The notes beneath the pieces were generated by a model that was given only the letters and a program-made list of their open reading frames with translations, was not told where the DNA came from and made no database searches. 64,000 nucleotides of DNA, taken from positions 5,270,001 to 5,334,000 of the forward strand of contig NC_089430.1 in assembly GCF_026210795.1 (NCBI RefSeq). Direction: 5' to 3'. This DNA comes from Rhizophagus irregularis. Taxonomy: Eukaryota. This document shows positions 4,106-63,768 of the stretch, one piece after another; within the stretch, counting starts at the first letter, position 1, and every line of letters begins with the position of its first letter. A program made the translations under genes and the position numbers.

Positions 4106-4114
4106 TAAAAATAA

Positions 4115-6251: not shown

Positions 6252-6606
6252 TTTCTATAGATTGTTAGATATTTACTGCGGATTTTAAGCGATTTTAACA
6301 ATTTGTAAGAAAGAGTTTTTTTCGGGTTTACAAATTCCGTATATTAAAACAATAAAAAGATATTATTGGGCGTTTTTTATAAAACTAGTAACGATTTTGT
6401 TGATCATTTGTTGATCATTTATTTTAAATTTATTATAAATTTTGTCACGAGATTTTCTATGGAAATCATTTCTCAATTTGTTATTAAAACACCTGCTGAA
6501 TTGCCTCGAAATTGAAAATCATTTCCCTTTTTATAAAAAAATTTCCTTTTTGGTAAAAAACTCAGATTAATCTTATATAACTTTATGTAAATGTCAATGT
6601 CAATGT

Positions 6607-8574: not shown

Positions 8575-8924
8575 TCAATGTCAATGTCAATGACAATGAC
8601 AATGAAAAAAACTTTTAATGCCAACTTTTCGCAAAAACTCTTCCTGTGCCACTAAAAGTCCCTGTTAAATTGTTGCATCATTCAATATTTGCATAATTTC
8701 ATTTTTTTGTTGATCATTAAAATTTCATAAAATATTGCAAAAAAATAAAAAAATTGTAAAAAAAAACGTTTCAGCGTTTTTTCATATAATATTATTAAAA
8801 AAAAATGCCAAAAACTTTTTTTTTTGCATTACTATTAAGAAAAAAACGTTTTGGCATTTTTCCATATAAAATTATAAAAAAAATAACACAAAAACATTTT
8901 TTCTTCATTTTTTATTTTTTTAAC

Positions 8925-9550
8925 AAAAAATGTCAAGACTGACGTTTTTAATTAAAAAAAACCAATATTTTTTTGATTTTTAATCACAAAAATGTCAAGT
9001 CTGACGTTTTTAATTAAAAAAATCATTTTTTTTTGATTTTTTAATTACAAAAATGTCAAGTCTGACGTTTTTAATTTAAAAAAAACCAATATTTTTTTAA
9101 TTTTTATTTTTTAATCACAAAAATGTCAAGTCTGACGTTTTTTAATTAAAAAAATCATTTTTTTGATTTTTTAATAACAAAAACGTCAAGTCTGATGTTT
9201 TTAATCAAAAAAATCATTTTTTTTGATTTTTTAATTACAATAACGTCAAGTCTAACGTTTTTAATCAAAAAATCATTTTTTTTTAATTTTTTAATTACAA
9301 AAACATCAAGTCTGACATTTTTAATCAAAAAAATCATTTTTTTTGATTTTTAATCACAAAAACATCAAGTCTGACATTTTTAATTAAAAAAAACCAATAT
9401 TTTTTTTGATTTTTAATCACAAAAACGTCAAGTCTGACGTTTTTAATAAAAAAATCATTTTTTTTGATTTTTTAATTACAAAAATGTCAAGTCTGACGTT
9501 TTTAACTAAAAAAATCAATTTTTTTGATTTTTAATTACAAAATTGTCAAA
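8925..9550. repeat. About 60-bp tandem array with internal hairpin (AAAAACGTCAAGTCTGACGTTTTT)
   Basis: Roughly ten degenerate units; subterminal array of the partial element copy. Confidence 0.9.
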
Positions 9551-9556
9551 TCTAAC

Positions 9557-14365: not shown

Positions 14366-17300
14366 CTAGTTTATGATCTTTGTCCAAAACTTTTTTCTAT
14401 TCGATATTTTGAACCTAAAAAAAAAATAAAATAATATATTGAATACGAATAATATAAAACTTACATCTTAATATTCAGTTGAGAAATATTAATTTGTAAA
14501 GATTCTATTTAATAAAAAGTTTTATTAGTATCTTTAACTGATTTGCATTTTTAAAATAACAAAATTATTATTAATAATAATACCTGAAGATTCCTTGCTT
14601 ATTATATTATCATATTGTTCATCAGAATTTTTTATTTTAGGCCTACAAAAAAAAAATAGTATATTAAATATAAATAATATTATTAATCATTAATCAGATA
14701 ATTAAAAAACTTACATTTTATTATTATTCAATTGAGAAATATCAAGTTGTAAAGATTCTATTTAATAAAAAGTTTTATTAGTATCTTTAAAAACTGATTT
14801 GCATTTTAAATAACAAAATTATTAAATGATACCTGAAAATTTCTCGCTAATTATATTATCATTTTGTTCATAATAATCGTCGGAATTTTTTGGTTCAGGA
14901 AGATTATTAAAATCGAGTAATCTACTTGTATAAATAGCTTCTGAATGTGTATTATATGATATCCCTAAACTAGTTGAAGTTATACTGCTATTTGATGAAT
15001 TATTACTTATCTCATCTGCTTCCTTAATTTGTGCTCGTAATTCTATCGTTTGTTCATTATTAGATTCATATTGCCATCTAAATAAAATATTAATTATTTC
15101 TTTTGCTATTGGTCTGCTTAATGGGTTTGCATCTAAGCATCTTTTAATTAAATGTACAATTAATTGTGGTACTTTAATGTTAAACCTTGGTCTAAGTCCT
15201 TTGCAAATTTTTATTGCTAAATTATTATCATGTTTTAAATCATGATATGGGGGCAATCCAGAAATTACTTCATACATTATTATACCAAAACTATATATAT
15301 CGGCAGCTTTGGTATAATTTTGTCCTCTTAAAATTTCAGGAGCTATATAAGGTAAAACACCATATATCTTGTTTTTTGTACCTTCTAATTCATTAAATTC
15401 ATTATAATTTGCAGGTTTACATAATCCCATATCAGTTATAGCAGTTTTATATTTAAACTTTAAAATATTTCCAATATGCAAATCTCGATGAATAAATTCC
15501 TTTTCATGAATACATTTAAGTCCAACAATAATATACTGTAAATATTCAAACATTTTATTCCAGTTAAGCATATTATGTTCTTTGTCTAAATAATTTCGTA
15601 GATTTCCATCTTCTGCATATTCTAGGACCATTATATAATTTTTCGTTTTTGGATCCTGAGTTATTCCATAGAATCTAACAATTATATCATTATCCATTTT
15701 CACTTTATTATGCAGCATGATCTATGATGTAAATGTAAATATACAGTATATATTAGTAAAGCTAACAAAATCAAAAGTAATATTAGATTTATAAGATTAA
15801 TCAAATTATACCTCATTTATAAATTCTAATGTAACATTTTTTGAATTATCTAAACTTTTCAGAGCTACAAGCATATTTTCATTATACCTTTTCCGATTTT
15901 GATGTTCATTATTCCAATTAGTCATATACCCATCAATCCAATTTGCTCTATACACTTTGCCAAATCCACCTTTAGCAATATATTCAATATTATAAAATCT
16001 ATCATAAGGTATCCATTCTAATACTTCTTTTACATCTTTATGGGATGATAGCTGAGTATCTTGAATAAATTTATCAATATCATCATTACCACTAGTCCAA
16101 TCTATGAATTTATATTGAAAATTTATTGTGTTACATATACTATTACATTTTTTACATTTATTTTTCAAAACCAATAAATAACTTTTTGTTTCCAGATCTT
16201 GAGTTATCCCATAAAATTCATATTTTATTTTAATCTATAAATGTAATAATATTTAGTAAAATTAAAGTATTCAAAATTTACTAAATAATTTTATCATACC
16301 TTATTTGTAAATTTTAATGTAAGAGTAGTATTTAAGCTCTTCAAATTCACAATCATATTGTGACCTTCTCTTTTCCAATTTTGTTTTTTATAATCCCATT
16401 CACTTATGTATCCATCAATCCAATTTGCTCTATACACTTTTCCAAATTTATCTTTTGCTATATATTTAATATCATACAATCTATTGTTAGGTATCCATTC
16501 TAATGCTTTTCCTGTATTATCATGAGCTGATAGCTGAGTATCTTGAATAAATTTATCAATATAATTATTACCACTAGTCCAATCTATGAATTTATGTTGA
16601 AAGTTTATTGTGTTACATATACTATTACACTTTTTACATTTATTATTCAAAATCATTAAATAATAATTCTTTGTTTCTGGATATTGAGTTATTCCATAAA
16701 ATTTATATTCTATTTTAATCTATAAATGTAATAATACTTAGTAGAAATTAAAATATTCAAAATTTTGCTAAATAAATTTATCATACCTTATTTGTAAATT
16801 CTATTGTAACATTTTTTGAATTATTTAAATTCTTCAAGTTTACAAACATATTATAATTTTCTCTTTTCCAATTTTGATTTTTGCTATCCCAATTAGTTAT
16901 ATAACCATCAATCCAATTTGCTCTATACACTTTGCCAAATTCATCTTCTGCAATATATTTAATATTATATAATCTATCATAAGGTATCCATTCTAATGCA
17001 TCTTTTAAATCATTATGAGATGATGACTGAGTATCTTGAATAAATTTATCAATATCATTATAACCACTGGTCCAATCTATGAATTTATGTTGAAAGTGTA
17101 TTGTATTACATATACTATCACACTTTTTGCAATCATAATTCAAAACTATCATATAATTATCTGTTTCTGGATCTTGAGTTATTCCAAAAGGTATATTGAT
17201 CTACAAATACAAATATATTAGTAGAAATTAGAAACTTCAAAATTTTGTTAAATAAAAATTTATTACAGTACCTCATTTTCAAATTCTATTGTAATATTTT

Positions 17301-19128
17301 TTAAATTATTTACTCTCTTCAAATTTACAAGCCTATTATGATCTCTTTTCCAATTTTGATTATTATCATCCCAATAACTTATATTTCCATCAATCCAATT
17401 TGCTTTATACACATTACCAAACTTATTTTTTGCAATATCATCTAATCTATCATAAGGTATCCATTCTAATGCATTTGATATTTTACTATATCTATGAGCT
17501 AATAGCTGAGTATTTTGAATAAATTTATCAATATCATTATTACCACTAGTCCAATCTATAAATTTATGTTGAAAGTTTATTGTGTTACATATACTGTCAC
17601 ATTTTTTACATTTTTTATTCAAAACCATCATATAATTATTTGTTTCTGGATCCTGAGTTATTCCATAAAATTCATATTTTATTTTAATCTATAAAATGTA
17701 TTAATATTTAGTAGAAATTAAAATATTCAAAATTTTGCTAAATAAATTTATTATACCTTATTTGTAAATTCTATTGTAACATTTTTTGAATTATTTAAAT
17801 TCTTCAAATTCACAAACATATTATAATCTTCTCTTTTCCAATTTTGATTTTTGCTATCCCAATTATTTATACTACCATCAATCCAATTTGCTCTATACAC
17901 TTTGCCAAATTCATCTTCTGCAATATATTTAATATTATATAATCTATCATAAGGTATCCATTCTAATGCTTTCTTTATATTATTATGGGCTGACAGCTGA
18001 GTATCTTGAATCAATTTATCAATATCATTATTACCACTAGTCCAATCTATAAATTTATATTGAAAGTGTATTGTATCACACATTCTACTGTAACACTTTT
18101 TACATTTATTATTTAAAACCATCATATAATTTTTTGTTTCTGGATCTTGAGTTATTCCAAAAGGTATATTAATCTACAAATACAAATATCTTAGTAGAAT
18201 TAAAAACTTCAAAATTTATTGTATTAAATTTATTATACCTCATTTTCAAATTCTATTTTAATATTTTTTAAAGAATTTACTCTCTTCAAATTCACAAGCC
18301 TATTATGACCTTCTCTTTTCCAATTTTGATTTTTATCATCCCAATGTTTTATATTTCCATTAATCCAATTTGCTTTATACACGTTGCCAAACTTATTTTT
18401 TACAATATCATCCAGTCTATCATAAGGTATCCATTCTAATGCTTCATTTATATCTGCATTATCATGAGCTGATAGCTGAGTCTCTTGAATCAATATATCA
18501 ATATCATTATTACCACTAGTCCAATCTATAAATTTATGTTGAAAGTTTATTGTGTTACACACATTTCTATTACACTTTTTACATTTATTATTCAAAACCA
18601 TCATATAATTTTTTGTTTCTGGATCTTGAGTTATTCCAAAAGGTATATTGATCTACAAATACAAATATATTAGTAGAAATTAGAAACTTCAAAATTTTGT
18701 TAAATAAAAATTCATTATAGTACCTCATTTTCAAATTCTATTTTAATATTTTTTAAAGAATTTACTCTCTTCAAATTCACAAGCCTATTATGACCTTCTC
18801 TTTTCCAATTTTGATTTTTATCATCCCAATGTTTTATATTTCCATTAATCCAATTTGCTTTATACACGTTGCCAAACTTATTTTTTACAATATCATCCAT
18901 TCTATCATAAGGTATCCATTCTAATGCATTTGATATTTCACTGTTTTTATGAGCCATTAGCTGAGTATGTTGAATAAATTCATCAATATTATTATTACCA
19001 CTAGTCCAATTTTCAAAATTTTGTTGAAAATGAATTGCATTACATGTATAATTACATTTATTACATTTTTTAACATGTGATGATTTAATTAATTTATTAA
19101 TAACTTTGATAAAAGGGTTCATTGACAT
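14366..19128 (-). CDS. TKL-type kinase A with 7 tandem N-lobe modules (about 1329 aa)
   Basis: Exons 19128-18724, 18652-18239, 18173-17757, 17688-17272, 17200-16787, 16719-16300, 16234-15812, kinase exon 15721-14833, tail 14757-14715, 14642-14584, 14504-14465, 14414-14366; all GT-AG and in frame; GGFGKVY, VALK, HRDLHIGN, DMG, APE, DIYSFG. Confidence 0.9.
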
Positions 19129-19200
19129 TTTTAAACTATAAATGAATTCAAGTTAATAGGATATCAAGGATAAATGAAAAAATTTTAAACCTTATTATAA

Positions 19201-25147: not shown

Positions 25148-28100
25148 TTAATTAATACCTCCATTGAGGAAATTAATTTGTAAAGATTCTATTTAATAAA
25201 AAGTCTTATTAGTAACTTTAAAAAACTGATTTGCATTTTAATAACAAAATTATTAGATGATACCTGAAAATTCCTTGCTAATTATATTATCATTTTGTTC
25301 ATAATAATCGTCAGAATTTTTTGGTTCAGAAAGATTATTAAAATTGAGTAATCTACTTGTATAAATAGCTTCTGAATGTGTATTATATGATATCCCTGAA
25401 TTAGTTGAAATTATACTGCTATTTGATGAATTATTGTTTTTCTCATCTGTTTCTTTAATTTGTGCTCGCAATTTTACTGTTTGTTCTTTATTTGGTTCAT
25501 ATTGCCATATGTATAAAATGTCGTTAATTTTTTCCGCTTTCGGTCGATTTGATGGAACAGCATCTAAACATTCCTTAATTAAAGATACAATTAATTGTGG
25601 CACTTTAATGTTAAACCAAGGTCTTAACCCTTGGCAAATTTTTAATGCCAAATTATTATCATGTTCTAAATTGTGATATGGGGGCAATCCAGATATTACT
25701 TCATATATTATTATGCCAAAACTATAAATATCAGAAGCTTTGGTATAATTTTGTCCTCTTAAAACTTCAGGAGCTATATAAGGTAAAACACCATATATGT
25801 TGTTTTTTGCATTTTCTAATTCATTATAATTTGCAGGTTTACATAATCCCATGTCAGCTATAGCAGTTTTATATTTAAACTTTAATATATTTCCAATATG
25901 CAAATCTCGATGAATTAATTCCTTTTCATGAATACATTTAAGTCCAAGTATAATATCTCGTAAATAATCAATTTTTTTACTCCAATTAAGCTTACTATAT
26001 TCTTTATCTAAGTAATTTCGTAAACTTCCATTTTCCGCATAATTTAAAACCATCATATAATTTTTTGTTTCTGGATCTTGAGTTACTCCATAAAATTCAG
26101 CAATATAATTAGTATTTATTCCTCCTTTGTTATGTGACGCAATCTATGTGAAAGTAATAATATAAAATATATTGGCAAAATTAAAATTTTAGGTATTATG
26201 AATATAACAATAAATTTATTTAATCAATTACCTCATTCATAAATTCTAATGTAACATTTTTTGAATTATCCAAACTTTTCAGAGCTATAATCATATTTTG
26301 ATTATATCTTTTCCAATTTTGATCTTTAATATTCCAATTAGACATATATCCATCAATCCAATTTGCTTTATATATTTTGCCAAATCCACCTTTTGCAATA
26401 TATTCAATATTATAAAATCTATCGTAGGGAATCCATTCTAATACGTTCTTTATATCGTCATCGTCGTGAGCTAATAGTTGAGTATCTTGTATAAATTTAT
26501 CAACATTATTATTACCGCTAGTCCAATCTAAAAATTTCTGTTGAAAGTGAATTGTATTACATATATCATTACATTTTTCACATATATTATTTAAAACCAT
26601 CATGTAACTTGTTGTTTCTGGATCTCGTGTTATACCATAAATTCTATATTCCATTTTAATCTATAAATGTAATAATGTTTTAGTAAAATCTAAATATTTA
26701 AAATTCATTAAATATATATATAATAAGTTTATCATACCTTATTTGTAAATTCTAATGTAAGATTACCCGAATTATTTAAACTTTTCAAATTCACAAACAT
26801 ATTATGACCTTTTCTTTCCCAATTTTGATTTTTATCATCCCAATTATTTATATTTCCATCAATCCAAATTACTCTATACGCTTTGCCAAATTCATCTTTT
26901 GTAATATGCAATCTTTCATAAGGTATCCATTCTAACGCTTCATTTACATCTCTAACAGATAATAGCTGAGCATCTTGAATAAATTTATCAATATCATCAT
27001 TACCACTGGTCCAATTTTTAAAATTTTGTTGAAAATGTATTGCATAACACGCGCAATTACATTTTTTACATTTATTACTATCCAAAACCATCATATAATG
27101 TTTTGTTTCTGGATCTCGAGTTATTCCATAGGGTTGATTGATCTACACATACAAAATATATTAGTAAAAATTAAGAACTTCAAAATTTTGTTAAATAAAA
27201 ATTTATTATAGTACCTCATTTTCAAATTCTTCTGCAATATTTTTTAAATCATTTACTCTCTTCAAATTCACAAGCCTATTATGACCTTCTCTTTTCCAAT
27301 TTTGATTTTTATCATCCCAATAACTTATATTTCCATCAATCCAATTTACTTTATGCACTTTACCAAATTCATCTTTTGTAATATGCAATCTATCATAAGG
27401 TATCCATTCTAACGCTTTATTTACATCATTAGCAGAAAATAGCTGAGCATCTTGAATAAATTTATCACTATCATCATCACCGCTGGTCCAATTTTTAAAA
27501 TTTTGTTGAAAATGTATTGCATAACATGCATAATTACATTTTTTACATTTATTACTATCCAAAACCATCATATAATGTTTTGTTTCTGGATCTTGAGTTA
27601 TTCCATAGGGTTTACGGATCTAACACACACAAAATATATTTAGTAAAAATTAAGAACTTCAATTTTGTAATAAGAAATTATTATACCTCATCATTAAATT
27701 CTGTAATATTTTTTGGATCATTTAAATTCTTCAAATACACTAACATATTACAACCTTCTCTTTTCCAACATTGATTTTTATCATCCCAATAACTTATATT
27801 TCCATCGATCCAATTTACTCTATCTTTTGTAATATGCAATCTATCATAAGGTATCCATTCTAACACTTCATTTACATCTTTAGCAGAAAATAGCTGAGTA
27901 TCCTGAATAAATTTATCAATATCATCATTACCACTGGTCCAATTTTCAAAATTTTGTTGAAAATGTATTGCATAACATGCACAATTACATTTTTCACATT
28001 TATTACTATCCAAAACCATCATATAATGTTTTGTTTCTGAATCTCGAGTTATTCCATTGGGTTTATTGATCTACACATACAAAATGTATTAGTAAAAATT

Positions 28101-28537
28101 AAGAACTTCAAAATTTTTGTTAAATTAAAGACTTATTATACCTCATTTGTTAATTCTATTGTAATATTTTTTAGATTATTTAAATTCTTCAAATATATTA
28201 ACATATTATGACCTTCTCTTGTCCAATTTTGATTTTTATCATCCCAACAACTTATTTTTCCATCAATCCAATTTGCTTTATATACTTTGCCAAGCTTATT
28301 TTTTGTAATATCATCCAGTCTATTATAAGGTATCCATTCTAATGCATTTGATATTTCATTGTCTTTATGAGCCATTAGCTGAGTATGTTGAATAAATTCA
28401 TTAATATCATTATTACCACTAGTCCAATTTTCAAAATTTTGTTGAAAATGTTTTGCATTACATGTATAGTTACATTTTTCACATTTCTCAACATGTGATG
28501 ACTTAATTGGTTCCTTATCTTTGATAACAGTACTCAT
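25148..28537 (-). CDS. TKL-type kinase B with 5 tandem N-lobe modules (about 979 aa)
   Basis: Exons 28537-28142, 28070-27687, 27619-27215, 27142-26738, 26660-26232, kinase exon 26143-25264, tail 25188-25148; GGFGKIY, IALK, HRDLHIGN, DMG, APE. Confidence 0.9.
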
Positions 28538-28672
28538 TGACTTTTTTAAATTATAAATGAATTCGAGTTAATAGGATATTTGAAGAATAATGAAATAAAA
28601 AAAAAATTTACACCTCATTAAAAAGAACTATTATAATTATGCGGGTGTACATTGCTTAACGAATTATGCAAT

Positions 28673-33834: not shown

Positions 33835-36180
33835 ATGGAAGATGATGGATCAAAAAATAATAAAAAAGATGATTTCGCTGAAAATTTAAAAGACAGTTCT
33901 TTAATGGTTGTTCCATTTGCAAGATTTCTTCCTTTAATTAATGAAATTGAAAATTTTTTTAACGAAATCATCGAATTAGTGGAAGCTGCTGAACATAATC
34001 AACGAACTTGTGAAATATTAAAAAATCGAGTTCGTGTTGCAGAATTAGCCGTACGAGATCTTAGAGATAAAAAAAAAGACAGAGAAGATTTTTTTAATAA
34101 AATAAATTATATACGTTTACAAGAATTATCTACTATTATAAAACAAATTAAAAAATTTATATCAGAAATCTCTCTAATGAAAACTTTGATAAAATACCTT
34201 AAAGAGAAAAGTGTTGAGAAAATTTTTAAAAAATTATGTATGGAATTCGACAGTTGTATTAACTTATTGTCTTTTTCTTTTAACGTTGAAATTGCTGATG
34301 AACTTGAACAATTAAAATCCGATCAAGATGATTTATTTAAAGTAAGATTAAAAAAATTGAGTTTTATTATTGAAACATAAAATTAATTTATATTATTTTA
34401 ATAAATTATAGTATCTACAAGGAATGGTGGCTGGTATTGATGATAACGACTGCTTCGCAGACTCAAGTAAAAAGTTTTTTTCAACAATTGTAAAAGTTAA
34501 TGCAATGAATAATACAATGATAGGAAAATTTAAAAGTCAAACAAAAATTAGTGATGTCTTTCAGGTACATCCACTAGAATTTTCTGATTATGAAATTGAT
34601 GATAATGGGAAAACAGATGAATATAGACGTGTAAATAAATGGTATAAAAAAACAAATAAAGGTGCTGAATTCGCTTTTAAAACTATCTCTGGAGAGGACG
34701 AAGTGATTGTACAAAAACAAGTTGCAATTCTTAAAGAACTTCATGATTGGCAAAACATCATAAAATTTCACGGAATGATTTCTGATGGAAATCAATGGTA
34801 TTTGGTGACTGAATGGGCCGAACGTGGAAATTTGCGTGAATTTTATCAAAATAAAAATTATATCGACCTTAAATCAAAATTACGTATATCTCTTGATATT
34901 GCTCGTGGATTAAATTTTTTAAGAACTGTAGAGGTAATTATATAACCAGCTTTTATTTAATTAACGAAAAATTTTTTTTTTAATTTTTTTTTTTAGATTT
35001 TTCATCGAGATATTAGGGCTGAAAATATATTAATTACACTTAATGAGACAGCAAAACTTGCAAATTTCAAATTAATTCGTTCCCAACCCGGCGGACAGGC
35101 TATATGTTTTCCAAACCTAAACTTAGACCAAACTCGTTATTGTGCACCTGAATTGTTGGAGGGGGTGCTAAATTACAAACATGAACAAAGATGTGGTGAG
35201 GTTTATAGTTTTGGAATCTTACTTTGGGAAATTGCTGAAGAAAGAATTCCACATCAGGGTATTAATGGTATTAGGGATATAATTGATAAGGTATGTAATA
35301 AAAAGTATAGAGAACCATTTTCTGAAAATAGTCAAATGCCAGAAAAATTCAAACAATTAGAAATTGAAGGTATGTAAAAGAAAATATTTTAAATTACAAT
35401 TTTATTTGTTGTACTTAATTGGTTTCTTTTTTTTTACATATTTTTTTAGCCGTTCATCATGATCCAGATTTTAGGCCAAAAATCACGAAAATATTTGAAG
35501 TTCTTAATAATTGTTTCAAGGAATATTCACAAGTTACATCAAGTTCTAGTGGCCCAAACCTAAGAGGAAACAGTAGAAACAACTCTATGCAAAAGTCTCG
35601 TCCAAAACGAGCAGACAACATTGATGCATACGCCCTTCCAGATCTTGAATCATTTAAATATATGACACTTGCTGATGCAGAAAAACAACATAAGTTGTAT
35701 AATAATCATGATAAACTAGTTGGAGATGTAATAACTGCATATAAATGTTTTGAAGCTTATGCAAACCTTGGTAATACAGGAGGTACAGCAAACCGTAATC
35801 AAATCAAAGCAAAATATTATAAAGCATATTACATTTCAAAAGAATTGATTGAGGACCCTACAAATAAAGATGAAATTGTTGCTGAATTATTTAAAGAAGT
35901 TGCTAATGATGAAGCAAATGGATTCCCTGAAGCAAAATTAAGATATGGAGATTGTTTGTATCATGGCAAAGGTGTTGATCAAAATTTTTCAGAAGCTCTT
36001 AAATATTTAGAAAAAGCTGCTGAAGATGGTTTTAAAGTAGCAATGTATAACACTGGAGGTATGTATTACAATGGTATTGGTTGTACGAAAGATATAGAAA
36101 AAGCTAAATATTATATGAAATTAGCTGCTTATGGTGATTATGAACTTGCTATTAAATTTTGTAAGGAACATGACATATAA
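33835..36180 (+). CDS. MLKL-like protein: N-terminal four-helix bundle (HeLo-like) + pseudokinase + Sel1-like repeats (710 aa)
   Basis: Exons 33835-34341, 34412-34933, 34997-35369, 35450-36180, in frame; helical NTD LINEI...AEHNQRTCEILKNRV; kinase fold FAFK, HRDIRAEN, NFK for DFG, YCAPE, EVYSFG; Sel1 YGDCLYHGKGVDQNFSEA and GGMYYNGIGCTKDIEKA. NTD identity is recognition, not a search result. Confidence 0.85.
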
Positions 36181-45021: not shown

Positions 45022-48000
45022 CTAACTTTTTCTGTTCGATATTTTGAACCTTAAAAAAATAAAATAATATATTGAATACGAATAATATAAAATTTACATC
45101 TCAATATTCAATTGAGATATATCAATTTGTAAAGATTCTATTTAATAAAAGTTTTATTAGTAACTTTAAAACTGATTTACATTTTTAAAATAACAAAATA
45201 TTAATAATAATACCTGAAGATTCATTGCTTATTATATTAATATTATCATATTGTTCATCAGAATTTTTTATTTTGGGCCTACAAAAAAAAAATAGTATAT
45301 TAAATATAAATGATATTATTAATCAATAATCATATAAGTTAAAAAACTTACATTTTATTATTATTCAATTGAGAAATATCAATCTGTAAAGATTCTATTT
45401 AATAACAAGATTTATTAGTATCTTTAAAACTGATTTGCATTTTTAAAATAACAAAATTTTTATTATTAATAATACCTGAAGATTCCTTGTTTATTATATT
45501 ATCATATTGTTCATCAGAATTTTTTATTTTGGACCTACAAAAAAAAAATAGTATATTAAATATAAATAATATTATTATTAATCATTAATCAAATAAATTA
45601 AAAAACTTACATTTTATTATTATTTAATTGAGATAGTATATTAATTTGTAAAGTTTCTATTTAATAAAAGGATTTATTAGTATCTTTAAAAAACTAGTAA
45701 TTTACATTTTAAATAACAAAATTATTAAATGATACCTGAAAATTTCTTGCTAATTATATTATCATTTTGTTCATAATAATCGTCAGAATTTTTTTGTTCT
45801 GGAAGATTATTAAAATCAAGTAATCTACTTGCATAAGTGGCTTCTGAATGTGTATTATATGATATTCCTAAGTTATTTGAAGTTATATCGCTATTTGACG
45901 AATTATTGTTTATTTCATCTGCTTCCTTAATTTGTGCTTGTAATTCTATTGTTTGTTTATCATTTGGTTCATATTGCCATTTAAGTAAAATTTTGTATAT
46001 GTCTTCTGCTGTTGGTCGATTTAGCGGATTGGAATCCAAGCACTTTTTAATTAAGTGCACAATTAATTGTGGTACTTTAATGTTAAACATTGGTCTAAGT
46101 CCTTTGCAAACTTTTATTGCTAAATTATTATCATGATTTAAATCATGATATGGGGGTAATCCAGAAATTACTTCATACATTATTATACCAAAACTATAAA
46201 TATCGGCAGCTGTTGTATAATTTTGTCCTCTTAAAATTTCAGGAGCTATATAAGGTAAAACGCCATATGTCTTATTTTTCGTATTTTCTGATGTATAACA
46301 ATCTGCAGGTTTACATAATCCCATATCAGTTATAGTAGTTTTATTTTTAAACTTTAAAATATTTCCAATATGTAAATCTCGATGGATTAATTCCTTTTCA
46401 TGAATACATTTAAGTCCAATAATAGTATAATGTAAATATTTAAACATTTCAATCCAATTAAGCTTATTATATTCTTTATCTAAATAATTTCGTAAACTTC
46501 CATCTTCTGCATATTCTAAGACCATTATATAATTTTTCGTTTTTGGATCCTGAGTTATTCCATAGAATCTGACAATTGCATTATTATCCATTTTCACTTT
46601 ATTATGCAGCATGATCTATGATGTAAATGTAAAAATAAAAATATATTAGTAAAACCGACAATCTAGGTATTATGATCAAAATTATCAAACTAAATTAATC
46701 AAATTATACCTCATTCATAAATGCTAATGTAACATTTTTTGAATTGTCTAAACTTTTCAGAGCTACAAACATAGTATCTTTATTATATCTTTTCCAATTT
46801 TGGTTACTATCATCCCAATCAATTAGATAACCATCAATCCAATTTGCTCTATACACTTTACCAAACCCACCTTTTGCAATATATATAATATCATAAAATC
46901 TATCATAAGGTATCCATTCTAAAGCATTTGTAAATAGTTCAATGTTATTATGTACTGATAACTGACTGTCTTGAATAAATATATCAATATTATTATTATC
47001 ACTGGTCCAATTTTCAAAATTTTGTTGAAAATGCATTGCATGACATGCATAATTACATTTTTTACATATAGTATTATTCAAAACCATCATATAACTTTTT
47101 GTTTCTGGATCTTGAGTTATTCCAAAAGGTATATTGATCTACAAATACAAATATATTAGTAGAAATTAAAAATTTCAAAATTTTATTAGTATTTTTTATT
47201 ATACCTCATCAATAAGTTTTATTCTAATATTCTTTAAATTATTTAAACTTTTTAGAATTACTACTCTACTTCCATATCTTATCCACTTTTCATTTTTATT
47301 ATCCCAACTCTCTATTTCTCCACCAATCCAATTTGCTCTATACATTTTACTAAATTCATCAGCATCTGCAATATATTTAATATTATATAATCTACTATAA
47401 GGTATCCATTCTAACACTTCTTTCAAATCATTATGAGCTGATAACTGAGTATCTTGAATAAATTTATCAATATCATTATTACCACTAGTCCAATCCATAA
47501 ATTTATGTTGGAAGTGCATTGTATTACATATACTATTACACTTTTTACAATTATAATTCCAAACCATAATATAATTTCTTGTTTCTGGATCTTGAGTTAT
47601 TTCAAAAGGTACATTGATCTACAAATACAAATATATTAGTGGAAATTAAGAACTTCAAAATTTTATTGACATTTAATTTATTATACCTCATTTGTGAATT
47701 TTATTGTAATATTTTTTGAATTGCATAAACTTTTCAGAATTATATCCTCACTTCTATATCTTATCCAATTATGATTTGTATTATTCAATTTGTATATTTC
47801 TCCATCAATCCAATTTGCTTTATACACTTTGACAAACTTATTTTTTGAAATATCACTATCATAAGGTATCTGTTCTAATGTATATTTTTTTACTAAGCAA
47901 TAAGTATGTTCTGACAGCTCGGTATCTTGAATAAATTTATCATTATCACTAGTACAATTTTCAAAATTTTGTTGAAAATCCATTGGATTGCATATTGCAT

Positions 48001-51000
48001 TACACTTTTTACATTTATTATTCAAAACTATCATATAATTTTTTGTTTCTGAATCTTGAGTTATTCCATAAAATTCATAATCTATTTTAATCTACAAATG
48101 TAATAATACTTAGTAAAAATTAAAATATTCAAATTATGCTAAATAATTTTACCATACCTTATTTGTAAATTTTATTGGAATATTTTTTGAATTATTTAAA
48201 CTTTTCAAATTCACAAACATATTACAACCTTCTCTTTTCCAATTTTGATATTTATTATCCCAATCACTTATATTTCCATCAATCCAATTTGCTCTATACA
48301 CTTTGCCAAATTCATCTTCTGCAATATATTTAATATTATAAAAACTATCATAAGGTATCCATTCTAATACTTCTTTTAAATCTTTATGAGATGATAACTG
48401 AGTATCTTGAATAAGTTTATCAATATCATTATTACCACTAGTCCAATCTATGAATTTATGTTGAAAGTGAATTGCATTACACATCTTATTACATTCTTTA
48501 CATTTATTATTCAAAATCATTAAATAGTTTTTTGTTTCTGGATCTTGAGTTATTCCATAAAATTCATATTCTATTTCAGTCTATAAATGTAATAACACTT
48601 AGTAGAAATTAAAATATTCAAAATTTTGCTAAATAGATTTATCATACCTTGTTTGTAAATTCTATTGTAATATTTTTTGAATTATTTAAACTCTTCAAAT
48701 TCACAAACATATTACAACATTCTTTTTTCCAATTTTGACTTTTGCTATCCCAATTAGTTATATATCCATCAATCCAATTTGCTCTATACACTTTGCCAAA
48801 TTCATCTTCTGCAATATATTTAATATTATATAATCTATCATAAGGTATCCATTCTAATACTTCTTTTAAATCTTTATGAGATGATAACTGAGTATCTTGA
48901 ATAAATTTATCAATATCATTATTACCACTAGTCCAATCTATGAATTTATATTGAAAGTGTATTGTATTACATATACTACTGCACTTTTTACATTTATAAT
49001 TCAAAACTATCATATAATTATCTGTTTTTGGATCTTGAGTTATTCCAAAAGGTATATTGACCTACAAATATAATTATATTAGTAGAAATTAAAAACTTTA
49101 AAACTTTATTGATATTAAATTTATATACCTCATTTGTAAATTCTATTGCAATGTTTTTTAAATTATTTAAACTCTTCAGAATTACATTCCCACTTCTATT
49201 TCTTTTCCAATTTTGATTTACACTATTCCAATATTCTATTTTTCCATCAATCCAATTTGCTTTATATACTTTACCAAACTTATTTTTCGAAAAATCATCC
49301 AGTCTATCATAAGGTATCCATTCTAATGCTTTTGTTGCATCATGAGCTGATAACTGAGTATCTTGAATAAATTTATCAATATCATTATTACCACTAGTCC
49401 AATCTATGAATTTATGTTGAAAGTGAATTGCATTACATATCTTATTACATTCTTTACATTTATTATTCAAAATCATTAAATAATTTTTTGTTTCTGGATC
49501 TTGAGTTATTCCATAAAATTCATATTCTATTTTAATCTGTAAATGTAATAATACTTAGTAAAAATCAAAATATTCAAATTTTGATAAATAATTTTACCAT
49601 ACCTTATTTGTAAATTTTGTTGTAACATTTTTTGAATTATTTAAACTTTTCAAATTCACAAACATATTACAATCTTCTCTTTTCCAATTTTGATATTTAT
49701 TTTTCCAACCACTTATATTTCCATCAATCCAATTTGCTCTATATATTCCAGATTCTTCAATATATTTAATATCATATAATCTATTATAAGGAATCCATTC
49801 TAATGCTTTTTTTGTACTATCATCATGAGCTGATAGCTGAGAATCCTGAATAAATTTATCAATATCATTATTACCACTGGTCCAATCTAAGAATTTATGT
49901 TGAAAGTGAATTGCATTACACATCTTATTACATTCTTTACATTTGTTATTCAAAATTATTAAATAGTTTTTTGTTTCTGGATCTTGAGTTATTCCATAAA
50001 ATTCATAATCTATTTTAATCTATAAATGTAATAATACTTAGTAAAAATTAAAATATTTAAATTTTGCTAAATAAGTTTACTATACCTTATTTTTAAATTT
50101 TATTGTAACATTTTTTGAATTATTTAAATTCTTCAAATTTACAAACATATTATAACCTTCTCTTTCCCAATTTTGATTATGGCTAACCCAATTAGTTATA
50201 TATCCATCAATCCAATTTGCTCTATACACTTTGCCAAATTCATCTTCTGCAATATATTTAATATTATATAATCTATCATAAGGTATCCATTCTAATACTT
50301 CTTTTAAATCTTTATCATGAGATGATAACTGAGTAACTCGAATAAGTTTATCAATACCATTATTACCACTAGTCCAATCTATGAATTTATGTTGAAAGTG
50401 AATTGCATTACACATCTTATTACATTCTTTACATTTGTTATTCAAAACTATTAAATAGTTTTTTGTTTCTGGATCTTGAGTTATTCCATATAATTTATAA
50501 TCTATTTTAATCTATAAATGTAATAATACTTAGTGAAAATTAAAATATTTAAATTTTGCTAAATAAGTTTACTGTACCTTATTTGTAAATTTTATTGTAA
50601 TATTTTTTGAATTAAAACTCTTCAAATTTACAAACATATTATAACCTTCTCTTTCCCAATTTTGATTATGGCTAACCCAATTAGTTATATATCCATCAAT
50701 CCAATTTGCTCTATACACTTTGCCAAATTTATCTTCTGCAATATATTTAATATTATATAATCTATCATAAGGTATCCATTCTAATACTTCTTTTAAATCT
50801 TTATAATGAAATGATAACTGAGTATCTCGAATAAGTTTATCAATACCATTATTACCACTAGTCCAATCTATGAATTTATGTCGAAAGTGAATTGCATTAC
50901 ACATCTTATTACATTCTTTACATTTATTATTCAAAACTATTAAATAGTTTTTTGTTTCTGGATCTTGAGTTATTCCATATAATTTATAATCTATTTTAAT

Positions 51001-53380
51001 CTATAAATGTAATAATACTTAGTAAAAATTAAAATATTTAAATTTTGCTAAATAAGTTTACTGTACCTTATTTGTAAATTTTATTGTAATATTTTTTGAA
51101 TTATTTAAACTCTTCAAATTTACAAACATATTATAACCTTCTCTTTTCCAATTTTGAATTTTGCTATCAAAATTAGTTATATATCCATCAATCCAATTTG
51201 CTCTATACACTTTGCCAAATTCATCTTCTGCAATATATTTAATATTATATAATCTATCATAAGGTATCCATTCTAACATTTCTTTTAAATCTTTATGAGA
51301 TGATAACTGAGTATCTTGAATAAATTTATCAATATCATTATTACCACTAGTCCAATCTATGAATTTATATTGAAAGTATAATGCATTACATTTACTGTTA
51401 CACTTTTTACATTCATTATTCAAAACCATCATGTAATTGTTTGTTTCCGGATCTTGAGTTATTCCAAAAGGTATATCGATCTATAAATACAAATAAATTA
51501 GTAGAAATTAAAAAAATCAAATTTTACTGGTATTAAATTTATTATACCTCATTTGTAAATTCTATTGTAATGTTTTTTAAATTACTTAAATTTTTCAGTA
51601 TTACATCCTCACTTCTATATCTTTTCCAATTTTGATTTTCATTATCCCAATATTCTATTCTTCCATCAATCCAATTTGCTTTATACACTTTACCAAACTT
51701 ATTTTTTGAAAAATCATCCAGTCTATCATAAGGTATCCATTCTAATGCATTTCCTGCCCAATAATTATGTACTGATAACTGAGTATCTTGAATAAATTTA
51801 TCAATATCATTATTACCACTAGTCCAATCTATGAATTTATATTGAAAGTGTAATGTATTACATTTACTGTTACACTTTTTACATTTATTATTCAAAACCA
51901 TCATGTAATTGTTTGTTTCCGGATCTTGAGTTATTCCAAAAGGTATGTCGATCTATAAATACAAATAAATTAGTAAAAATTAAAAAAATCAAATTTTACT
52001 GGTATTAAATTTATTATACCTCATTTGTAAATTCTATTGCAATATTTTTTAAATTACTTAAATTTTTCAGTATTACATCCTCACTTCTATATCTTTTCCA
52101 ATTTTGATTTTCATTATCCCAATATTCTATTCTTCCATCAATCCAATTTGCTTTATACACTTTACCAAACTTATTTTTTGAAAAATCATCCAGTCTATCA
52201 TAAGGTATCCATTCTAATGCATTTCCTACCCAATAATTATGTACTGATAACTGAGTATTTTGAATAAATTTATCAATATCACTATTACCACTAGTCCAAT
52301 CTATGAATTTATGCTGAAAGTATATTGCGTCACATTTACTGTTACATGTTTTACATTCATTACTATTTAAAACCATAATGTAATTGTTTGTTTCCGGATC
52401 TTGAGTTATTCCAAAAGGCATATTGATCTACAAATACAAATATATTAGTAGAAATTAAAAAACTTCAAAATTTATTGGTCGGTATTAAGTTTATTATACC
52501 TCATTTGTAAATTCCATTGCAATGTTTTTTAAATTACTTAAACTTTTCAGAAAAACATCCTCATTTTTATATCTTGCCCAATTTTTATTTTCATTATTCC
52601 AATGTATTATTTTTCCATCAATCCAATTTGCTTTGTACACTTTGCCAAACATATATTTTGCAATATCGTCCAGTCTATCATAAGGTATCCATTCCAATGC
52701 ATTTGATATTTCACTATCTTTATGAGATGATAATTGAGTATCCTGAATAAATTTATCAATATCGTTATTACCACTAGTCCAATCTATGAATTTATATTGA
52801 AAGTGTATTGCATTACATATACTGTTACACTTTTTACATATATTACTATTTTTTAAAACCATAATATAATTATCTGTTTCCGGATCTTGAGTTATTCCAA
52901 AAGGTATATTGACCTACAAATACAAGCATATTAGTAGAAATTAAAAACTTCAAAATTTTACTGGTATTAAATTTATTATACCTCCTCATTTTTAAATTTT
53001 ATTGTAATATTTTTTGAATTATTTAAACTTTTCAGAATTACATCCTTACTTCCATATCTTATCCAATTTTTATTTTTATTATCCCAATATTTTATTTTTC
53101 CATCGATCCAATTTGCTTTATACACTTTGCCAAATTTATTTTTTGCAAAATTATCTAGTCTATCATAAGGTATCCATTCCAATGCATTTGATATTTCACT
53201 ATCTTTATGAGCTGATAACTGAGTATCTTGAATAAATTTATCAATATTGTCATTACCACTAGTCCAATTTTTGAAATTTCGCTGAAAATGCATTGCGTGA
53301 CATGCATAATTACATTTTTCACAACTCTTGACACGTGATAACTTAGTTATCTTCTTAATACTTTTGATAAAGGGATCCAT
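45022..53380 (-). CDS. TKL-type kinase C with 14 tandem N-lobe modules (about 2319 aa)
   Basis: Exons 53380-52982, 52913-52500, 52427-52020, 51952-51548, 51480-51067, 51000-50578, 50511-50086, 50019-49603, 49536-49129, 49061-48648, 48580-48158, 48091-47687, 47618-47205, 47138-46710, kinase exon 46615-45736, six tail exons to about 45022; all module exons are multiples of 3. Confidence 0.9.
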
Positions 53381-54467
53381 TGACTTTTAAGTTATTTCTA
53401 ATGAATTCAGGTTTATAGGATATCTAAAGGATGTATGAATAAAATTTTTTTAAGCTTAATAAATATACGGAATTTTTCGGATGTACACTAATTAACGAAT
53501 TACGCAATGATGCATTGTGCAACAAAGTCTATTTTGTTTACGGATGTCTATCCCAAACACTTATTAGTTTAGGAATATTCTATGTAGATCACGTCAAACT
53601 ACTATGTAGTTCGTCTAACCCATTGTCCCAGCCTATGATCAGTCAATAGTAAATAAGCACATGATTTTTACCTTTCATACGACTGTTATTTATTAAAGTC
53701 ACCTTAATTGATCAATCAATGAATTTGATTTTGGATAATAAGAACTAATTTTGTGGATTCTAGTTTGTAAAATAGTTAACACTAGTAAATGGTCAAATCG
53801 TGGCATCTTAAAATTTTGTCTTAATAACAAGTTATTACTAACTAATTAGGGTTCTTTAAGACAATGTGAGTTTTATAATTATAAACAATTTTTTACTGTA
53901 TATTGTGAACATTTATTATTCCAAAATGTTTTAGATTTACAGTTTTACACACAAAACTTATAAACTAGATAAGTAAGACATTAAAAAGATCGAGTCTGAT
54001 ATTTTAATAAAAAAAAGTCATATATTTTTTATTTCTCAATTAAAAATGTCAAGTTTATAACCTTTTGATTTTTATTTTTTTGATTAATCTATATGACAAC
54101 GTCACATCTAGACGTACCCTCTGTAAAAAATAATTTTGAATTGTCTAACGTATTACGTTTGCGCCTGGTCTATAGATTTTTGTTCTCTATTATTATGGTT
54201 AAAGTGGTTTGATTGGTAAATTCATAACATAAATGCCAATTATCTCTTTATTTCACCAAAATTTAATGATTTTAATCATGATTGAAGGTCCCAGAAAGAT
54301 CAATTCATGTGACTTTTTGGGCGGACCAAAATAATCAGGTTGGGTCAGTTAATTATTAATGACCAAAAGTTATTTTTTTTTTAATTATACACATGTGTAT
54401 ACGCTTATTCATTGTTTTAACTGTTTTTAAATTTTTTACCTATTTTTTTAGTAAGATATTTTTTTGT

Positions 54468-57311: not shown

Positions 57312-60300
57312 CTACAAAACACTACCGTAATCAACAATATTATAGTAATCTATTGTATTACCCCCAAAATAAATATGACTTTGAAGACTTTGTAGATTAA
57401 AGTATTTCTTATTTTTTGATTTACGCGTTTTGTCAATAAACTGCTCTTTACCAAAATGTTGTTTTTTAACATTTTTATCAATTCCCAAACCTCTATCAAT
57501 TTCATTAAGTTTATTACACCTCACTTTCCAAAAAATCATAGATTTATCCAAAATTTCATTCCTAAAATTATATGACAAAATTTCAACTTTTGATTTCGTA
57601 GATAATAATTGTTTAAAAAAATTAATTAACGAACAAGGAAAGAAACCTTTAATTAAATCTATGAAAGTTATGTGATCCTCTGATACTTCAAGTTTCCAAA
57701 TATCATTGAGATTTTTAATATGTTCAAGAGTAATATGATTAATAGGATCTAAAATTTTATTAATTTCTAAAAGAAGCCAATTTTGTACTCCTGAAATTAA
57801 ATCATCCATATCCTCTCGTCTTTCTTCACAAAACCAGATATGATTGAAATCTTCTTCATCCTCTTTACACATAGGACAAAACCTTTCTTTATATAATGAA
57901 AATAAAGTTCTTTTAATTTGTTCAATGCAAGGAAGTTCTTCAATCATCAACTGAATTTTGCGTCTTCTAATTTTTGATTCTTTGAAATCAGTGTATAATT
58001 TTTGTTTTTCTCCCAAAAAATTATTAAAAAAAATTGACCAATCTATTTCACATTTTCTATACTTATCATTTCTATTTAAATTTAAAAACCTTTCCAAATT
58101 TTTCGTATTGGTTGTTAATGTAATTAACTTTCTTAAAGATTTTTCTATAACTATGCCATTCCATTTGGGAATCCAAGGAAGATCATAAAAATTATTATAA
58201 TTTAAATTAATTCCTAAATTTTGATCATTATGTGCCAAAGAAACAATATTGTCGACATAATTATTTAAAGAATCATCTGTATGAGCATTAACTTTAAATA
58301 TATTAACAGATAAATTATTTTCTTTAATAATATCCATAATTATTTTCCAAAGAATGTTGTTATTACTAATTTTAAAAATTTGTCTAGTAACTAAAGTAAA
58401 ATTATAAAATTTAAATTTTTCAAAATTACTAATAACGCTAGCACTAGAGCTCCGAATGGGTCAGGTCAGGTCAGGTTAATTGATAAACCTGACCTGAAAT
58501 TTTTTTTCAGGTCAGGTCAGGTCAGGTTATATCAGGTTGTCTGTTTGACCTGACCTGACCTGAAACCTGAAAATTTTCAGGACTATTTTTATTAAAGTAT
58601 TGAAAAAAAACAGTACAAAACTTTTTTTTTTAATATAATATTATGAAAAAAAAACGTTTTTGCAACGTTTTTTATTAAAATATTGAAAAAAAATATTGCA
58701 AAACATTTTTTTTAATATAACATTATGAAAAAAATGTTTTCACAACGTTATTATTGAAATATCAAAAAAAAAAACGTTACGAAACATTTTTTTAATATAA
58801 TATTATGAAAAAACGTTTTCGCAATATTTTTTCTCAAAATATTGCGATTCAACATTTTTATATTAAAATCATATAAAAAAGTGAATCCCAATACTGCAAT
58901 TCACTTTTTTATATTGATTTTGTATAAAAAAAGTGAGTTGCGGTGTTGCGATTCACTTTTTTATATAGATTCTATATAAAAAAAAGTGAGTTGCGGTATT
59001 GCGATTCACTTTTATTATATAAAATCAATATAAAAAAGTGAATCGCAATACCGCAACTCACTTTTATTATATAAAATCAATATAAAAAAGTGAATCGCAA
59101 TGCCGCAACTCACTTTTTTTATATAGAATCTATATAAAAAAGTGAATCGCAATACTGCAACTCACTTTTATTATATAAAATCAATATAAAAAAGTTAATC
59201 GCAATACTGCAACTCACTTTTATTATATAAAATCAATATAAAAAAGTTAATCGCAATACTGCAACTCACTTTTATTATATAGTAGAATCAATAGTTTCAG
59301 GTCAACAGGTCAATCAGGTCAGGTCAATCTTCATACCTGACCTGAATTTCAGGTCAGGTCAGGTCAGGTTACCTGAATTTGGCTGACCTGTTCGGAGCTC
59401 TAGCTAGCACTATCTGTATAAACTGTTAAATTACTATTAGAAGGTGCTATTAGCAAAGTAATTAATAAAGCAAAAATTTCTGCACGTGTTGATGAAATCC
59501 AATTATTATAAGATGATATTAATTCCAAAATTTTTTGCAAGGACAAATTATAAAAAGTTGTTCCAAAAGTAGCTGATACATATTCTTTGGTAATATCTTT
59601 AATTGAACCATCTGTATAGCAAACAAAATCTTTAACATTTGAATCATATAAAATTTTTCTTGAATCAAATAATTTCTGTTTATCTAATGATAAATCTATA
59701 TATTTTTCAATAATATCTAAACTATTTTCATCAAAACGTAATTGATAATTATCATATGAAGAGTAATATAAAGGGTTTCGTTTAAAAAATTGATCATATC
59801 TTATAATATTTTCCATATAATTATGTTGTGCTTCCTTTAGAAGATATGCCTTATATCCCTTCCATTTAATAAGTCTTTTATATCTCACTTCATATATTTC
59901 AGTTTTCATTGATTCTATTATACATTTACCTTCTATTTGACCAATATTATATTCACAACCATTACACACTTTAATAAACAAATTAATTTCACTTGTGTTC
60001 GATATTCTTTTAAAATGTTCAAAAATATATGTAAAGGGCTTTTCTTCAATTATTTTTCCATAAATATTTTCAAAATGAAACATATTAAAAGATGTTATAA
60101 TATTATTAATATGAATATTAATTGGTAAAAATTCATAACCACCCAAATTTGTCACTACATTATTATCTATATATTCCTCTTTAACATTATAATTTTTTCC
60201 ATTAGTTGTAACTAAAGACTGAATTTTTTTATATATATTTGGCGTATTAACTACATTACTATTTCTATTATTACTAAGAGCAAATATCTTATTTTTTATA

Positions 60301-63300: not shown

Positions 63301-63768
63301 TCCATAATAATTAATGATTCTCATTTTTTTATTTCCACTAAAAATAAAATTAACATATATAATTCTTCCTTTGAAGCTATTATAATTGACTATATGCCGT
63401 GCATAATTTTTCTTAATAATAAGACCTACGCCATTTCCCCTATAATTAGTTTCCTCATTTGCAAAATAAGTAACATAATTATTTCTATAAAAATTAAAAG
63501 AATGTTTTGCCATTTTGTTCGATATATTAGTTTCTGATAGACCCAAAATAGTTATATTATATTCACCTAATATATCAATTAAGAATTGTTTTTTAACATC
63601 AGTTATACCTTTAAGCTATTTTAATTATATCTGATAAATTGAGTCGTTGACGTGTTTTCGGATGATAAATTTGTTGATTATTTAAATTTGAACGTGATTT
63701 TTGATTAACAGGGGAAGGATTATTATAATGTTTTTCTTAAAAGAATGTGTTTTTTTATTGTTCATCAT
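57312..63768 (-). pseudogene. LINE-B ORF2 (APE, RT, RNase H, C-terminal Cys/His motif), disrupted
   Basis: GLSETN, LGDFN, SRIDYIW, TDH; GIDQGE, AYMDDT; RNase H YTDGS, RAE, YTDS, KVNAH; CPMC-X8-H-X3-C. Frameshifts near 63730 and 61150, a deletion near 63613 removing the APE TxN motif, and a MITE at 58445. Confidence 0.93.
58445..59402. mobile_element. 958-bp hAT-type non-autonomous element
   Basis: TIR TAGAGCTCCGAA; perfect 8-bp TSD GCTAGCAC; (CAGGT)n subterminal repeats; internal ~52-bp hairpin units AAAAGTGAATCGCAATACYGCAACTCACTTTT. Confidence 0.95.

What the first reader, a model, noticed from the sequence alone, without database searches (positions are those of the whole stretch)
33835..36180. 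4HB-pseudokinase-Sel1 architecture
Seen: no Gly-rich loop, DFG replaced by NFK, subdomain IX D to E, but beta3 Lys and HRD kept; Sel1-like repeats at the C-terminus. Known: loss of the DFG Asp usually means a pseudokinase; animal MLKL has no Sel1 repeats. Inference: an MLKL-like switch with its own ligand-binding repeats, i.e. effector-switch-sensor in one chain, organised like an NLR.
Basis: partly seen in the sequence, partly recalled or inferred. Interest (0 to 1): 0.7.

Follow-up and report, generated by a model that had tools for sequence, protein, structure and literature searches.

The report
Fungal MLKL with hypervariable activation loop
This gene of a mycorrhizal fungus encodes a look-alike of the animal cell-death protein MLKL with an added Sel1-repeat tail; its close duplicates differ mostly in the pseudokinase loop that triggers animal MLKL, so that loop, not the repeats, is likely what tells each copy when to act.

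Summary
A four-exon gene encodes 710 aa, identical to Rhizophagus irregularis GBC40451.1: four-helix bundle, brace, pseudokinase, Sel1-type tail. The bundle's best structural match is the human MLKL N-terminal domain (Z 14.1, rmsd 2.5 Å). The kinase C-lobe exon alone ranks MLKL first among solved structures. NFK and the subdomain-IX Glu are family-wide, and MLKL has that Glu too. The family spans Glomeromycota, and MLKL homologues with Sel1 were already noted there in one sentence (PMC8778642).

The 'Sel1 = NLR-like sensor' reading is not supported: the tail has near-fixed length and is conserved. Among seven paralogues of one isolate, the activation loop is 25% identical, against 79-89% for Sel1 and bundle. 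Most family members keep a Ser/Thr at a position matching an MLKL phosphosite (75 of 90); this copy has lost it.

Best model: an MLKL-like death or defence switch whose input specificity lies in the pseudokinase activation segment, with Sel1 as a constant adaptor. Killing, catalytic inactivity, the trigger, positive selection and orthology to animal MLKL are all untested.

The parts
33835..34341 (+). Exon 1, residues 1-169: N-terminal extension, four-helix bundle, start of brace
33835..33927 (+). Residues 1-31, an extension ahead of the position of MLKL Met1; 1-20 disordered in the model; F31 and the following P33 conserved (103 and 100 of 119)
33928..34266 (+). MLKL-type four-helix bundle, residues 32-144 (predicted membrane-targeting effector)
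   Evidence: Pfam MLKL_N E=4e-6; VIA Z 14.1, rmsd 2.5, 134 aligned to 6ux8; Foldseek ranks 1-2 MLKL, E 0.2
34291..34558 (+). Brace helices, about residues 153-218 (spans intron 1)
   Evidence: helices in the model of paralogue P0003; collinear with the MLKL brace
34412..34933 (+). Exon 2, residues 170-343: brace and pseudokinase N-lobe; no Gly-rich loop; K259 at 34679-34681; alphaC Glu position Q272 at 34718-34720
34997..35369 (+). Exon 3, residues 344-468: HRD (35003-35011), NFK (35063-35071), activation loop, APE, subdomain IX E411 (35198-35200)
35069..35134 (+). Activation loop, residues 368-389: paralogue-specific; lacks the family's conserved Ser at +4 and Ser/Thr at +11
35450..36180 (+). 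Exon 4, residues 468-710: end of pseudokinase, linker, C-terminal helical repeats, stop codon
35515..35649 (+). Low-confidence, likely disordered linker, residues 490-534
   Evidence: pLDDT under 50 over 498-531 in the P0003 model
35650..36177 (+). Sel1/TPR-like C-terminal domain, residues 535-710: about four helix pairs, two passing Pfam Sel1 (best at 35926-36030)

Best explanation
The protein has the MLKL layout (four-helix bundle, brace, pseudokinase) plus a fixed Sel1 tail, and it likely works as a cell-death or defence switch whose bundle would be released when a partner binds or modifies the pseudokinase activation segment. Shown: the layout, the family-wide loss of DFG-Asp, alphaC-Glu and Gly-rich loop, a conserved loop Ser/Thr in most relatives, and the replacement of the loop in this gene and its near-duplicates while bundle and tail stay conserved. 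Inferred: the ancestral type is switched by phosphorylation, as MLKL is by RIPK3, probably by one of the fungus's many active TKL-type kinases. Recent duplicates such as this one have retuned the loop to a different kinase or to a foreign modifying enzyme or binder, in the manner of a bait. The Sel1 tail is a constant adaptor, for a shared partner, localisation or restraint, rather than a variable receptor. Membrane damage by the bundle is inferred from homology only.
For: Bundle. Collinear 4HB-brace-pseudokinase alignment to full-length human and mouse MLKL as one stretch, E=9e-40 and 2e-56. Exon 3 alone ranks eight MLKL sequences first of 455 matches (50 vs 43 bits); an active kinase from the same window has no MLKL among its best 60 of 1001. 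Foldseek on the full model ranks MLKL 1-3. Loop Ser/Thr at +11 in 75 of 90 and Ser at +4 in 65 of 90; +11 falls on the second Ser of mouse MLKL's 'SIS', which I take to be the S347 site named in PMC11476962. Seven paralogues of one isolate, 21 pairs: loop 0.25 (lowest 22-aa window; minimum elsewhere 0.53), Sel1 0.79, 4HB 0.89, disordered linker 0.67, and each loop type near-identical across isolates. Control kinases in the window: loop 0.60-0.76 against flanks 0.75-0.84. In RNA reads, 10 of 10 loop substitutions are non-synonymous, against 2 of 6 just upstream. Ten AMF proteins among 221 bundle-bearing ones also carry a kinase with HxD and DFG intact, all ten in one AMF kinase clade.
Against: No functional data exist for any member. 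The bundle is preceded by 31 extra residues, and Wojciechowski et al. caution that N-terminally extended MLKL-like bundles may not kill. Arabidopsis MLKL immunity is separable from cell death. The HRD Asp and catalytic Asn are almost invariant (89 of 90), unlike animal MLKL, so residual catalysis is open. With the broad 119-sequence profile, isolated MLKL pseudokinase chains (156-160 bits) score below MLT/ZAK and BRAF (163-167), and the VIA search puts BTK, ALK and FES level with or above rat MLKL. The 10 of 10 count rests on 3-5 unphased reads per site and is not significant against neutrality (P=0.065). Gene conversion could homogenise the flanks and mimic loop acceleration. Loop divergence is clade-specific: many other pairs keep it at 0.75-1.0. 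The kinase fusions may be merged gene models.
Confidence: 0.55

Rival explanations
1. All-in-one receptor: the Sel1 repeats bind a ligand, the pseudokinase relays the signal and the bundle kills, as in an NLR.
For: The tail is kept across Glomeromycota orders, in 142 of 221 bundle-bearing proteins. It occurs in two types that are shuffled against the kinase part among paralogues. Fungal NLRs use C-terminal repeats as sensors.
Against: Length is near-fixed (median 166 aa, IQR 158-173, 1 of 109 over 200). Only 2 of 176 sites have four or more states among seven paralogues. There is no NOD domain. Diversity maps to the activation segment instead.
Confidence: 0.17
2. Non-lethal signalling scaffold or atypical, weakly active kinase: the bundle and brace only oligomerise the protein, and the variable loop sets substrate or partner choice.
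For: HRD Asp and catalytic Asn in 89 of 90 and beta3 Lys in 79 of 90; 31-residue extension before helix 1; plant MLKLs act partly without cell death.
Against: DFG-Asp, alphaC-Glu and the Gly-rich loop are lost family-wide. The bundle is the closest structural match to the MLKL executioner domain. Invertebrate MLKL N-terminal domains with about 20% identity to mouse still kill.
Confidence: 0.16
3. This copy is an inhibitor or a drifting duplicate: having lost the conserved loop Ser/Thr, it sequesters the upstream kinase (as poxviral MLKL does) or is simply released from constraint.
For: The window protein has Ile at +4 and Gln at +11; two paralogues have no Ser/Thr in the loop. Viral MLKL decoys lost the loop phosphosites. 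Few RNA reads cover this loop.
Against: Viral decoys also lose the bundle, whereas here it is the most conserved region (0.89). The frame is intact and the loop identical in four database records of this gene. The loop diverges far more than the disordered linker in the same pairs (for example 0.14 vs 0.89).
Confidence: 0.12

Closest known systems
Animal MLKL (human 6LK5/6UX8, mouse 4BTF)
   Same: Collinear 4HB-brace-pseudokinase; DFG-Asp lost (xFxL); Glu at subdomain IX; Ser/Thr at a matching loop position in most relatives.
   Different: HRD Asp kept; Asn rather than Gly at the DFG-Asp position; 31-residue N-terminal extension; Sel1 tail; large multigene family; loop replaced in recent duplicates; no RIPK3 or RHIM partner known.
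Glomeromycotina 'MLKL family 1.A.105' homologues with Sel1 (PMC8778642)
   Same: Very likely the same family: reported as exclusive to Glomeromycotina, with Sel1 PF08238 and no clear function.
   Different: In the passages I read there is one sentence and no analysis of fold, motifs, phosphosites or paralogue divergence; its supplements were not read.
Plant MLKLs (AtMLKL1-3, 6KA4)
   Same: HeLo/4HB, brace, pseudokinase and an extra C-terminal region; activation-loop Ser regulates activity; Z 10.7 to the bundle.
   Different: The plant tail is a Ser-rich region, not Sel1; three genes in Arabidopsis; weaker structural match than animal MLKL.
Fungal NLRs with HeLo, HeLo-like, Goodbye or BaMLKL N-termini
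   Same: MLKL-related bundle at the N-terminus and repeats at the C-terminus.
   Different: No NACHT or NB-ARC domain; the middle is a pseudokinase; the repeats are short and conserved.
Plant decoy or bait pseudokinases (ZED1/RKS1 with ZAR1; tandem kinase-pseudokinase proteins)
   Same: A pseudokinase surface serves for effector recognition (tandem kinases; the ZED1/RKS1 mechanism is recalled, not read).
   Different: Here the putative bait is in one chain with the death domain; no effector is known.

Membership tests
MLKL | N-terminal four-helix bundle of the MLKL fold | tested here: met
   VIA Z 14.1, rmsd 2.5, 134 aligned, top of 48161 chains; Pfam MLKL_N E=4e-6 but 0.3 bit under the cut-off
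MLKL | Brace helices linking the bundle to a kinase-fold domain, collinear | tested here: met
MLKL | Pseudokinase by sequence (DFG-Asp lost) | tested here: met
   N366; 86 of 90 relatives have Asn and none has Asp
MLKL | Catalytic HRD Asp also lost, as in mammalian MLKL | tested here: not met
   D348 kept; 89 of 90
MLKL | Activation-loop Ser/Thr at the RIPK3 site positions | tested here: not met
   This protein has Q at +11 and no Ser/Thr at +8 or +9; the wider family keeps Ser/Thr at +11 in 75 of 90
MLKL | Pseudokinase monophyletic with animal MLKL | tested here: inconclusive
   MLKL is best hit but not in 54 or 69; no animal MLKL sequence was available for the tree
MLKL | N-terminal domain kills cells or permeabilises membranes | not testable with these tools
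   needs experiment
MLKL | No catalytic activity; activation by an upstream kinase | not testable with these tools
   needs experiment
NLR (fungal, plant or animal) | Central NACHT or NB-ARC domain | tested here: not met
   no such Pfam hit in the four exons or in 23 scanned proteins
NLR (fungal, plant or animal) | C-terminal repeats variable in number and hypervariable in sequence | tested here: not met
HeLo / RPW8 (CC-R) domains | Bundle closer to HeLo or RPW8 than to MLKL | tested here: inconclusive
   NRG1.1 CC-R Z 7.3 and MLA13 Z 7.2, against 14.1 for MLKL; no Pfam HeLo or RPW8 hit

The most novel reading that the evidence does not exclude
Arbuscular mycorrhizal fungi carry true orthologues of animal MLKL, placing the necroptosis executioner before the animal-fungal split, and have expanded them into an immune or non-self receptor repertoire in which the pseudokinase activation loop is a positively selected, built-in bait wired directly to the pore-forming bundle.
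Probability: 0.25. Interest if true: 0.85.

Novelty: new variant of a known kind. Interest (0 to 1): 0.6.

Why it matters
Fungal MLKL-like death domains are known mostly on NLRs and amyloid-controlled effectors, and the relation of full fungal MLKLs to animal MLKL is stated to be unclear (PMC11476962). AM fungi are coenocytic symbionts of most land plants; I found no characterised cell-death executioner for them in my searches. This family offers a concrete candidate. The paralogue set is a natural loop-swap series (near-identical bundle, kinase core and tail, different loops), which makes the question of what sets MLKL trigger specificity directly testable in yeast.

Tried and rejected
Complex prediction of residues 23-492 with 533-710 gave no answer (score 0.00, alignment not used); this is no evidence either way on an intramolecular latch.

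No genome is held for the window, so paralogue DNA, synteny and a proper dN/dS were not available. The metagenome scan returned 2 distant loci from 109 stretches, not used. The ESM Atlas was never reachable.

Single-sequence phmmer of exon 1 against PDB found nothing up to E=10, and Foldseek on the bundle gave no hit at E<=0.001. HET-s HeLo was not among the 50 VIA rows, which does not exclude kinship.

Searches meant to reach non-Glomeromycota relatives were filled by the family itself. Of 20 representatives looked up, 18 were Glomeromycota, one a plant multi-kinase and one unnamed. Absence elsewhere is therefore not shown, and PMC11476962 names a Basidiobolus MLKL.

No run was on record as an RNA holder. 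The 688-aa database model with an extra intron in the last Sel1 repeat (P0001) was rejected: no such joint, and relatives keep the segment. A 708-aa splice alternative was rejected by the loose ends at 34933.

Adjacency to the three active kinases in the window was rejected as evidence of partnership, since the species has about 2,500 kinase genes. Kwon et al. 2019 (pseudokinase survey) was not held. The search of earlier findings returned nothing.

Full report
Gene and observation. The window is AT-rich eukaryotic DNA with short introns. Splicing 33835-34341, 34412-34933, 34997-35369 and 35450-36180 gives 710 aa, identical to Rhizophagus irregularis GBC40451.1 (P0283). Joints for introns 1 and 3 occur in runs X1, X20 and X23, and loose ends at 34933 continue into exon 3 in 46 and 47 reads. 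Only 44 of 817 and 49 of 513 laid reads were at least 99% alike, so most come from paralogues or other strains. A 176-nt contig of X1 spans this gene's own loop without a difference; X1 is RNA by guess but shows spliced joints.

The N-terminal domain is an MLKL-type bundle. Pfam MLKL_N matches residues 43-160 at E=4e-6, 0.3 bit under the cut-off. An AlphaFold2 model of exon 1 (119 sequences, pLDDT 84) matches the human MLKL N-terminal domain best of 48161 chains (Z 14.1, rmsd 2.5, 134 aligned), then mouse MLKL (12.3), an unrelated helical protein (11.0) and AtMLKL3 (10.7); NRG1.1 CC-R scores 7.3. Foldseek ranks MLKL 1-2 with weak E-values. MLKL residue 1 corresponds to residue 32, so there is a 31-residue extension. 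Family profiles align to full-length human and mouse MLKL as one stretch through bundle, brace and pseudokinase.

The pseudokinase is a family trait and resembles MLKL's. In 90 full-length relatives: beta3 Lys 79, alphaC Glu 11, HRD Asp 89, catalytic Asn 89, Asn for DFG-Asp 86 (Asp 0), IX Glu 85, GxGxxG 1. Human and mouse MLKL also have Glu at IX and an xFxL motif. Exon 3 alone ranks eight MLKL sequences first of 455 PDB matches, whereas an active kinase from the window has none in its best 60 of 1001. Against orthology: with the broad profile, MLKL pseudokinase chains fall below MLT/ZAK and BRAF, and by VIA they tie with or trail tyrosine kinases. In a quick tree of 93 kinase domains, 45 pseudokinases sampled from 154 form one side of a branch (SH-aLRT 100), apart from the AMF HxDLH kinases; no animal MLKL could be included. 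I therefore call it an MLKL structural homologue, not a proven orthologue.

Distribution. The 120 hits listed (of 171) are all named from Glomeromycota: Rhizophagus, Glomus, Funneliformis, Gigaspora, Dentiscutata, Cetraspora, Diversispora, Acaulospora, Entrophospora, Ambispora, Paraglomus. Of 266 proteins gathered, 221 have the bundle and 142 of those the tail. The searches were saturated by the family, so absence elsewhere is not shown.

Where the diversity lies. Locus tags show five close paralogues near each other (OCT59_019971, 019974, 019975, 019977, 019984) plus 026970 and this gene (012477) in one isolate. For these 7 of 36 aligned proteins (21 pairs), mean identity is: 4HB 0.89, C-lobe 0.86, proximal tail 0.81, Sel1 0.79, N-lobe 0.69, linker 0.67, P+1/alphaEF 0.63, activation loop 0.25. 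The loop is the lowest 22-aa window, with 0.53 the minimum elsewhere, and each loop type is near-identical across isolates. Sites with four or more states: loop 12 of 22, tail 2 of 176, 4HB 0 of 128. The ancestral loop stays 0.85-1.0 identical between species even where the 4HB is about 0.6. A second clade also shows low loop identity (0.15-0.55), while many other pairs do not. Three active kinase paralogues in the window show only a mild dip (0.60-0.76 vs 0.75-0.84). Read differences inside the loop are 10 of 10 non-synonymous and spell the loop of paralogue P0293 (P=0.065 against neutrality; 2 of 6 upstream, Fisher P=0.008; few unphased reads). The tail is near-fixed in length and comes in two types shuffled against the kinase part.

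Phospho-switch. Counting from the Asn of NFx, Ser is at +4 in 65 of 90 and Ser/Thr at +11 in 75 of 90. In the alignment mouse MLKL has Ser at +4, +9 and +11; I read +9 and +11 as S345 and S347, the sites named in PMC11476962 (an inference from spacing). The human sites T357/S358 fall at +8 and +9, where the family has Ser/Thr in 26 and 6 of 90. This protein has Ile at +4 and Gln at +11 and keeps only S372 and T389; two paralogues have no loop Ser/Thr.

Mechanism. Most likely (0.55) an MLKL-like switch gated at the activation segment, with paralogue-specific inputs and a constant Sel1 adaptor. Architecture, motif loss and the pattern of divergence are shown; killing, inactivity, the trigger and selection are inferred. 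Ten AMF proteins combine the bundle with an intact kinase of one clade, a weak pointer to an upstream kinase that may reflect merged gene models. Rivals: Sel1 sensor (0.17), non-lethal scaffold or atypical kinase (0.16), inhibitor or drifting copy (0.12).

Literature seen. PMC8778642 (passages): MLKL homologues exclusive to Glomeromycotina, with Sel1, function unclear. PMC11476962 (parts 1-2 of 5): names a Basidiobolus MLKL and says the relation to metazoan MLKL is unclear. PMC12881547 (passages): some HELL domains sit on kinase/pseudokinase proteins. 10.1101/2022.03.16.484565 (passages), PMC10197012, 10.1101/681015, PMC13519141, PMC10211241, PMC10234402: passages. PMC4725247: outline only, not used. 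Kwon et al. 2019 was not held; from recall it describes pseudokinase expansions in R. irregularis and may cover this family. No supplements were read; those of PMC8778642 and PMC11476962 may list these proteins. In ten searches (listings, plus the passages above) I saw no report of the loop diversification or the phosphosite match; subscription journals are largely not covered.

Verdict. A real feature. The architecture has been noted in print but not analysed; the new element is that specificity appears to evolve in the pseudokinase loop rather than the repeats. New variant of a known kind; interest 0.6.

Noticed in passing
window 14822-19152, 25253-28567, 45725-53386 (all minus strand): Three paralogous kinases with intact HRD and a DFG-type Asp, each preceded by tandem repeats of about 140 aa, one per exon, in 7, 5 and about 14 copies. 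The repeats hold CxxC pairs and what look like kinase N-lobe pieces (a GxGGFG-like loop and an ALK strand in the last copy). Four repeats tested had no Pfam hit. A variable-number repeat kinase is a candidate sensor kinase.
   Followed up: partly
P0253 (unnamed protein): 1427-aa protein with MLKL_N (E=6e-18), a degenerate and an intact kinase domain and ankyrin repeats; it looks bacterial by my reading.
   Followed up: partly
P0002, P0015, P0027, P0135, P0138, P0171, P0196, P0013: Family members with tandem bundle-pseudokinase units, repeated bundles, or fused MACPF-like or Tse2 ADP-ribosyltransferase-like domains; some may be merged gene models.
   Followed up: no
window 8908-11850: Three arrays of a 60-bp repeat (10-11 copies each) in alternating orientation, and a 269-bp inverted repeat at 6344-6609 / 10886-11153 (98% alike) flanking a 518-codon open frame without Pfam hit at 6655-8211.
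   Followed up: no
window 455-6254 and 57312-63615 (minus strand): Two non-LTR retroelement-like regions; the right one has endonuclease and reverse transcriptase Pfam hits, and the left one is split over several frames.
   Followed up: no
window 36058-36123: The database model OCT59_012477 (688 aa) removes 22 residues of the last Sel1 repeat as an intron; reads show no such joint and GBC40451.1 keeps them.
   Followed up: yes
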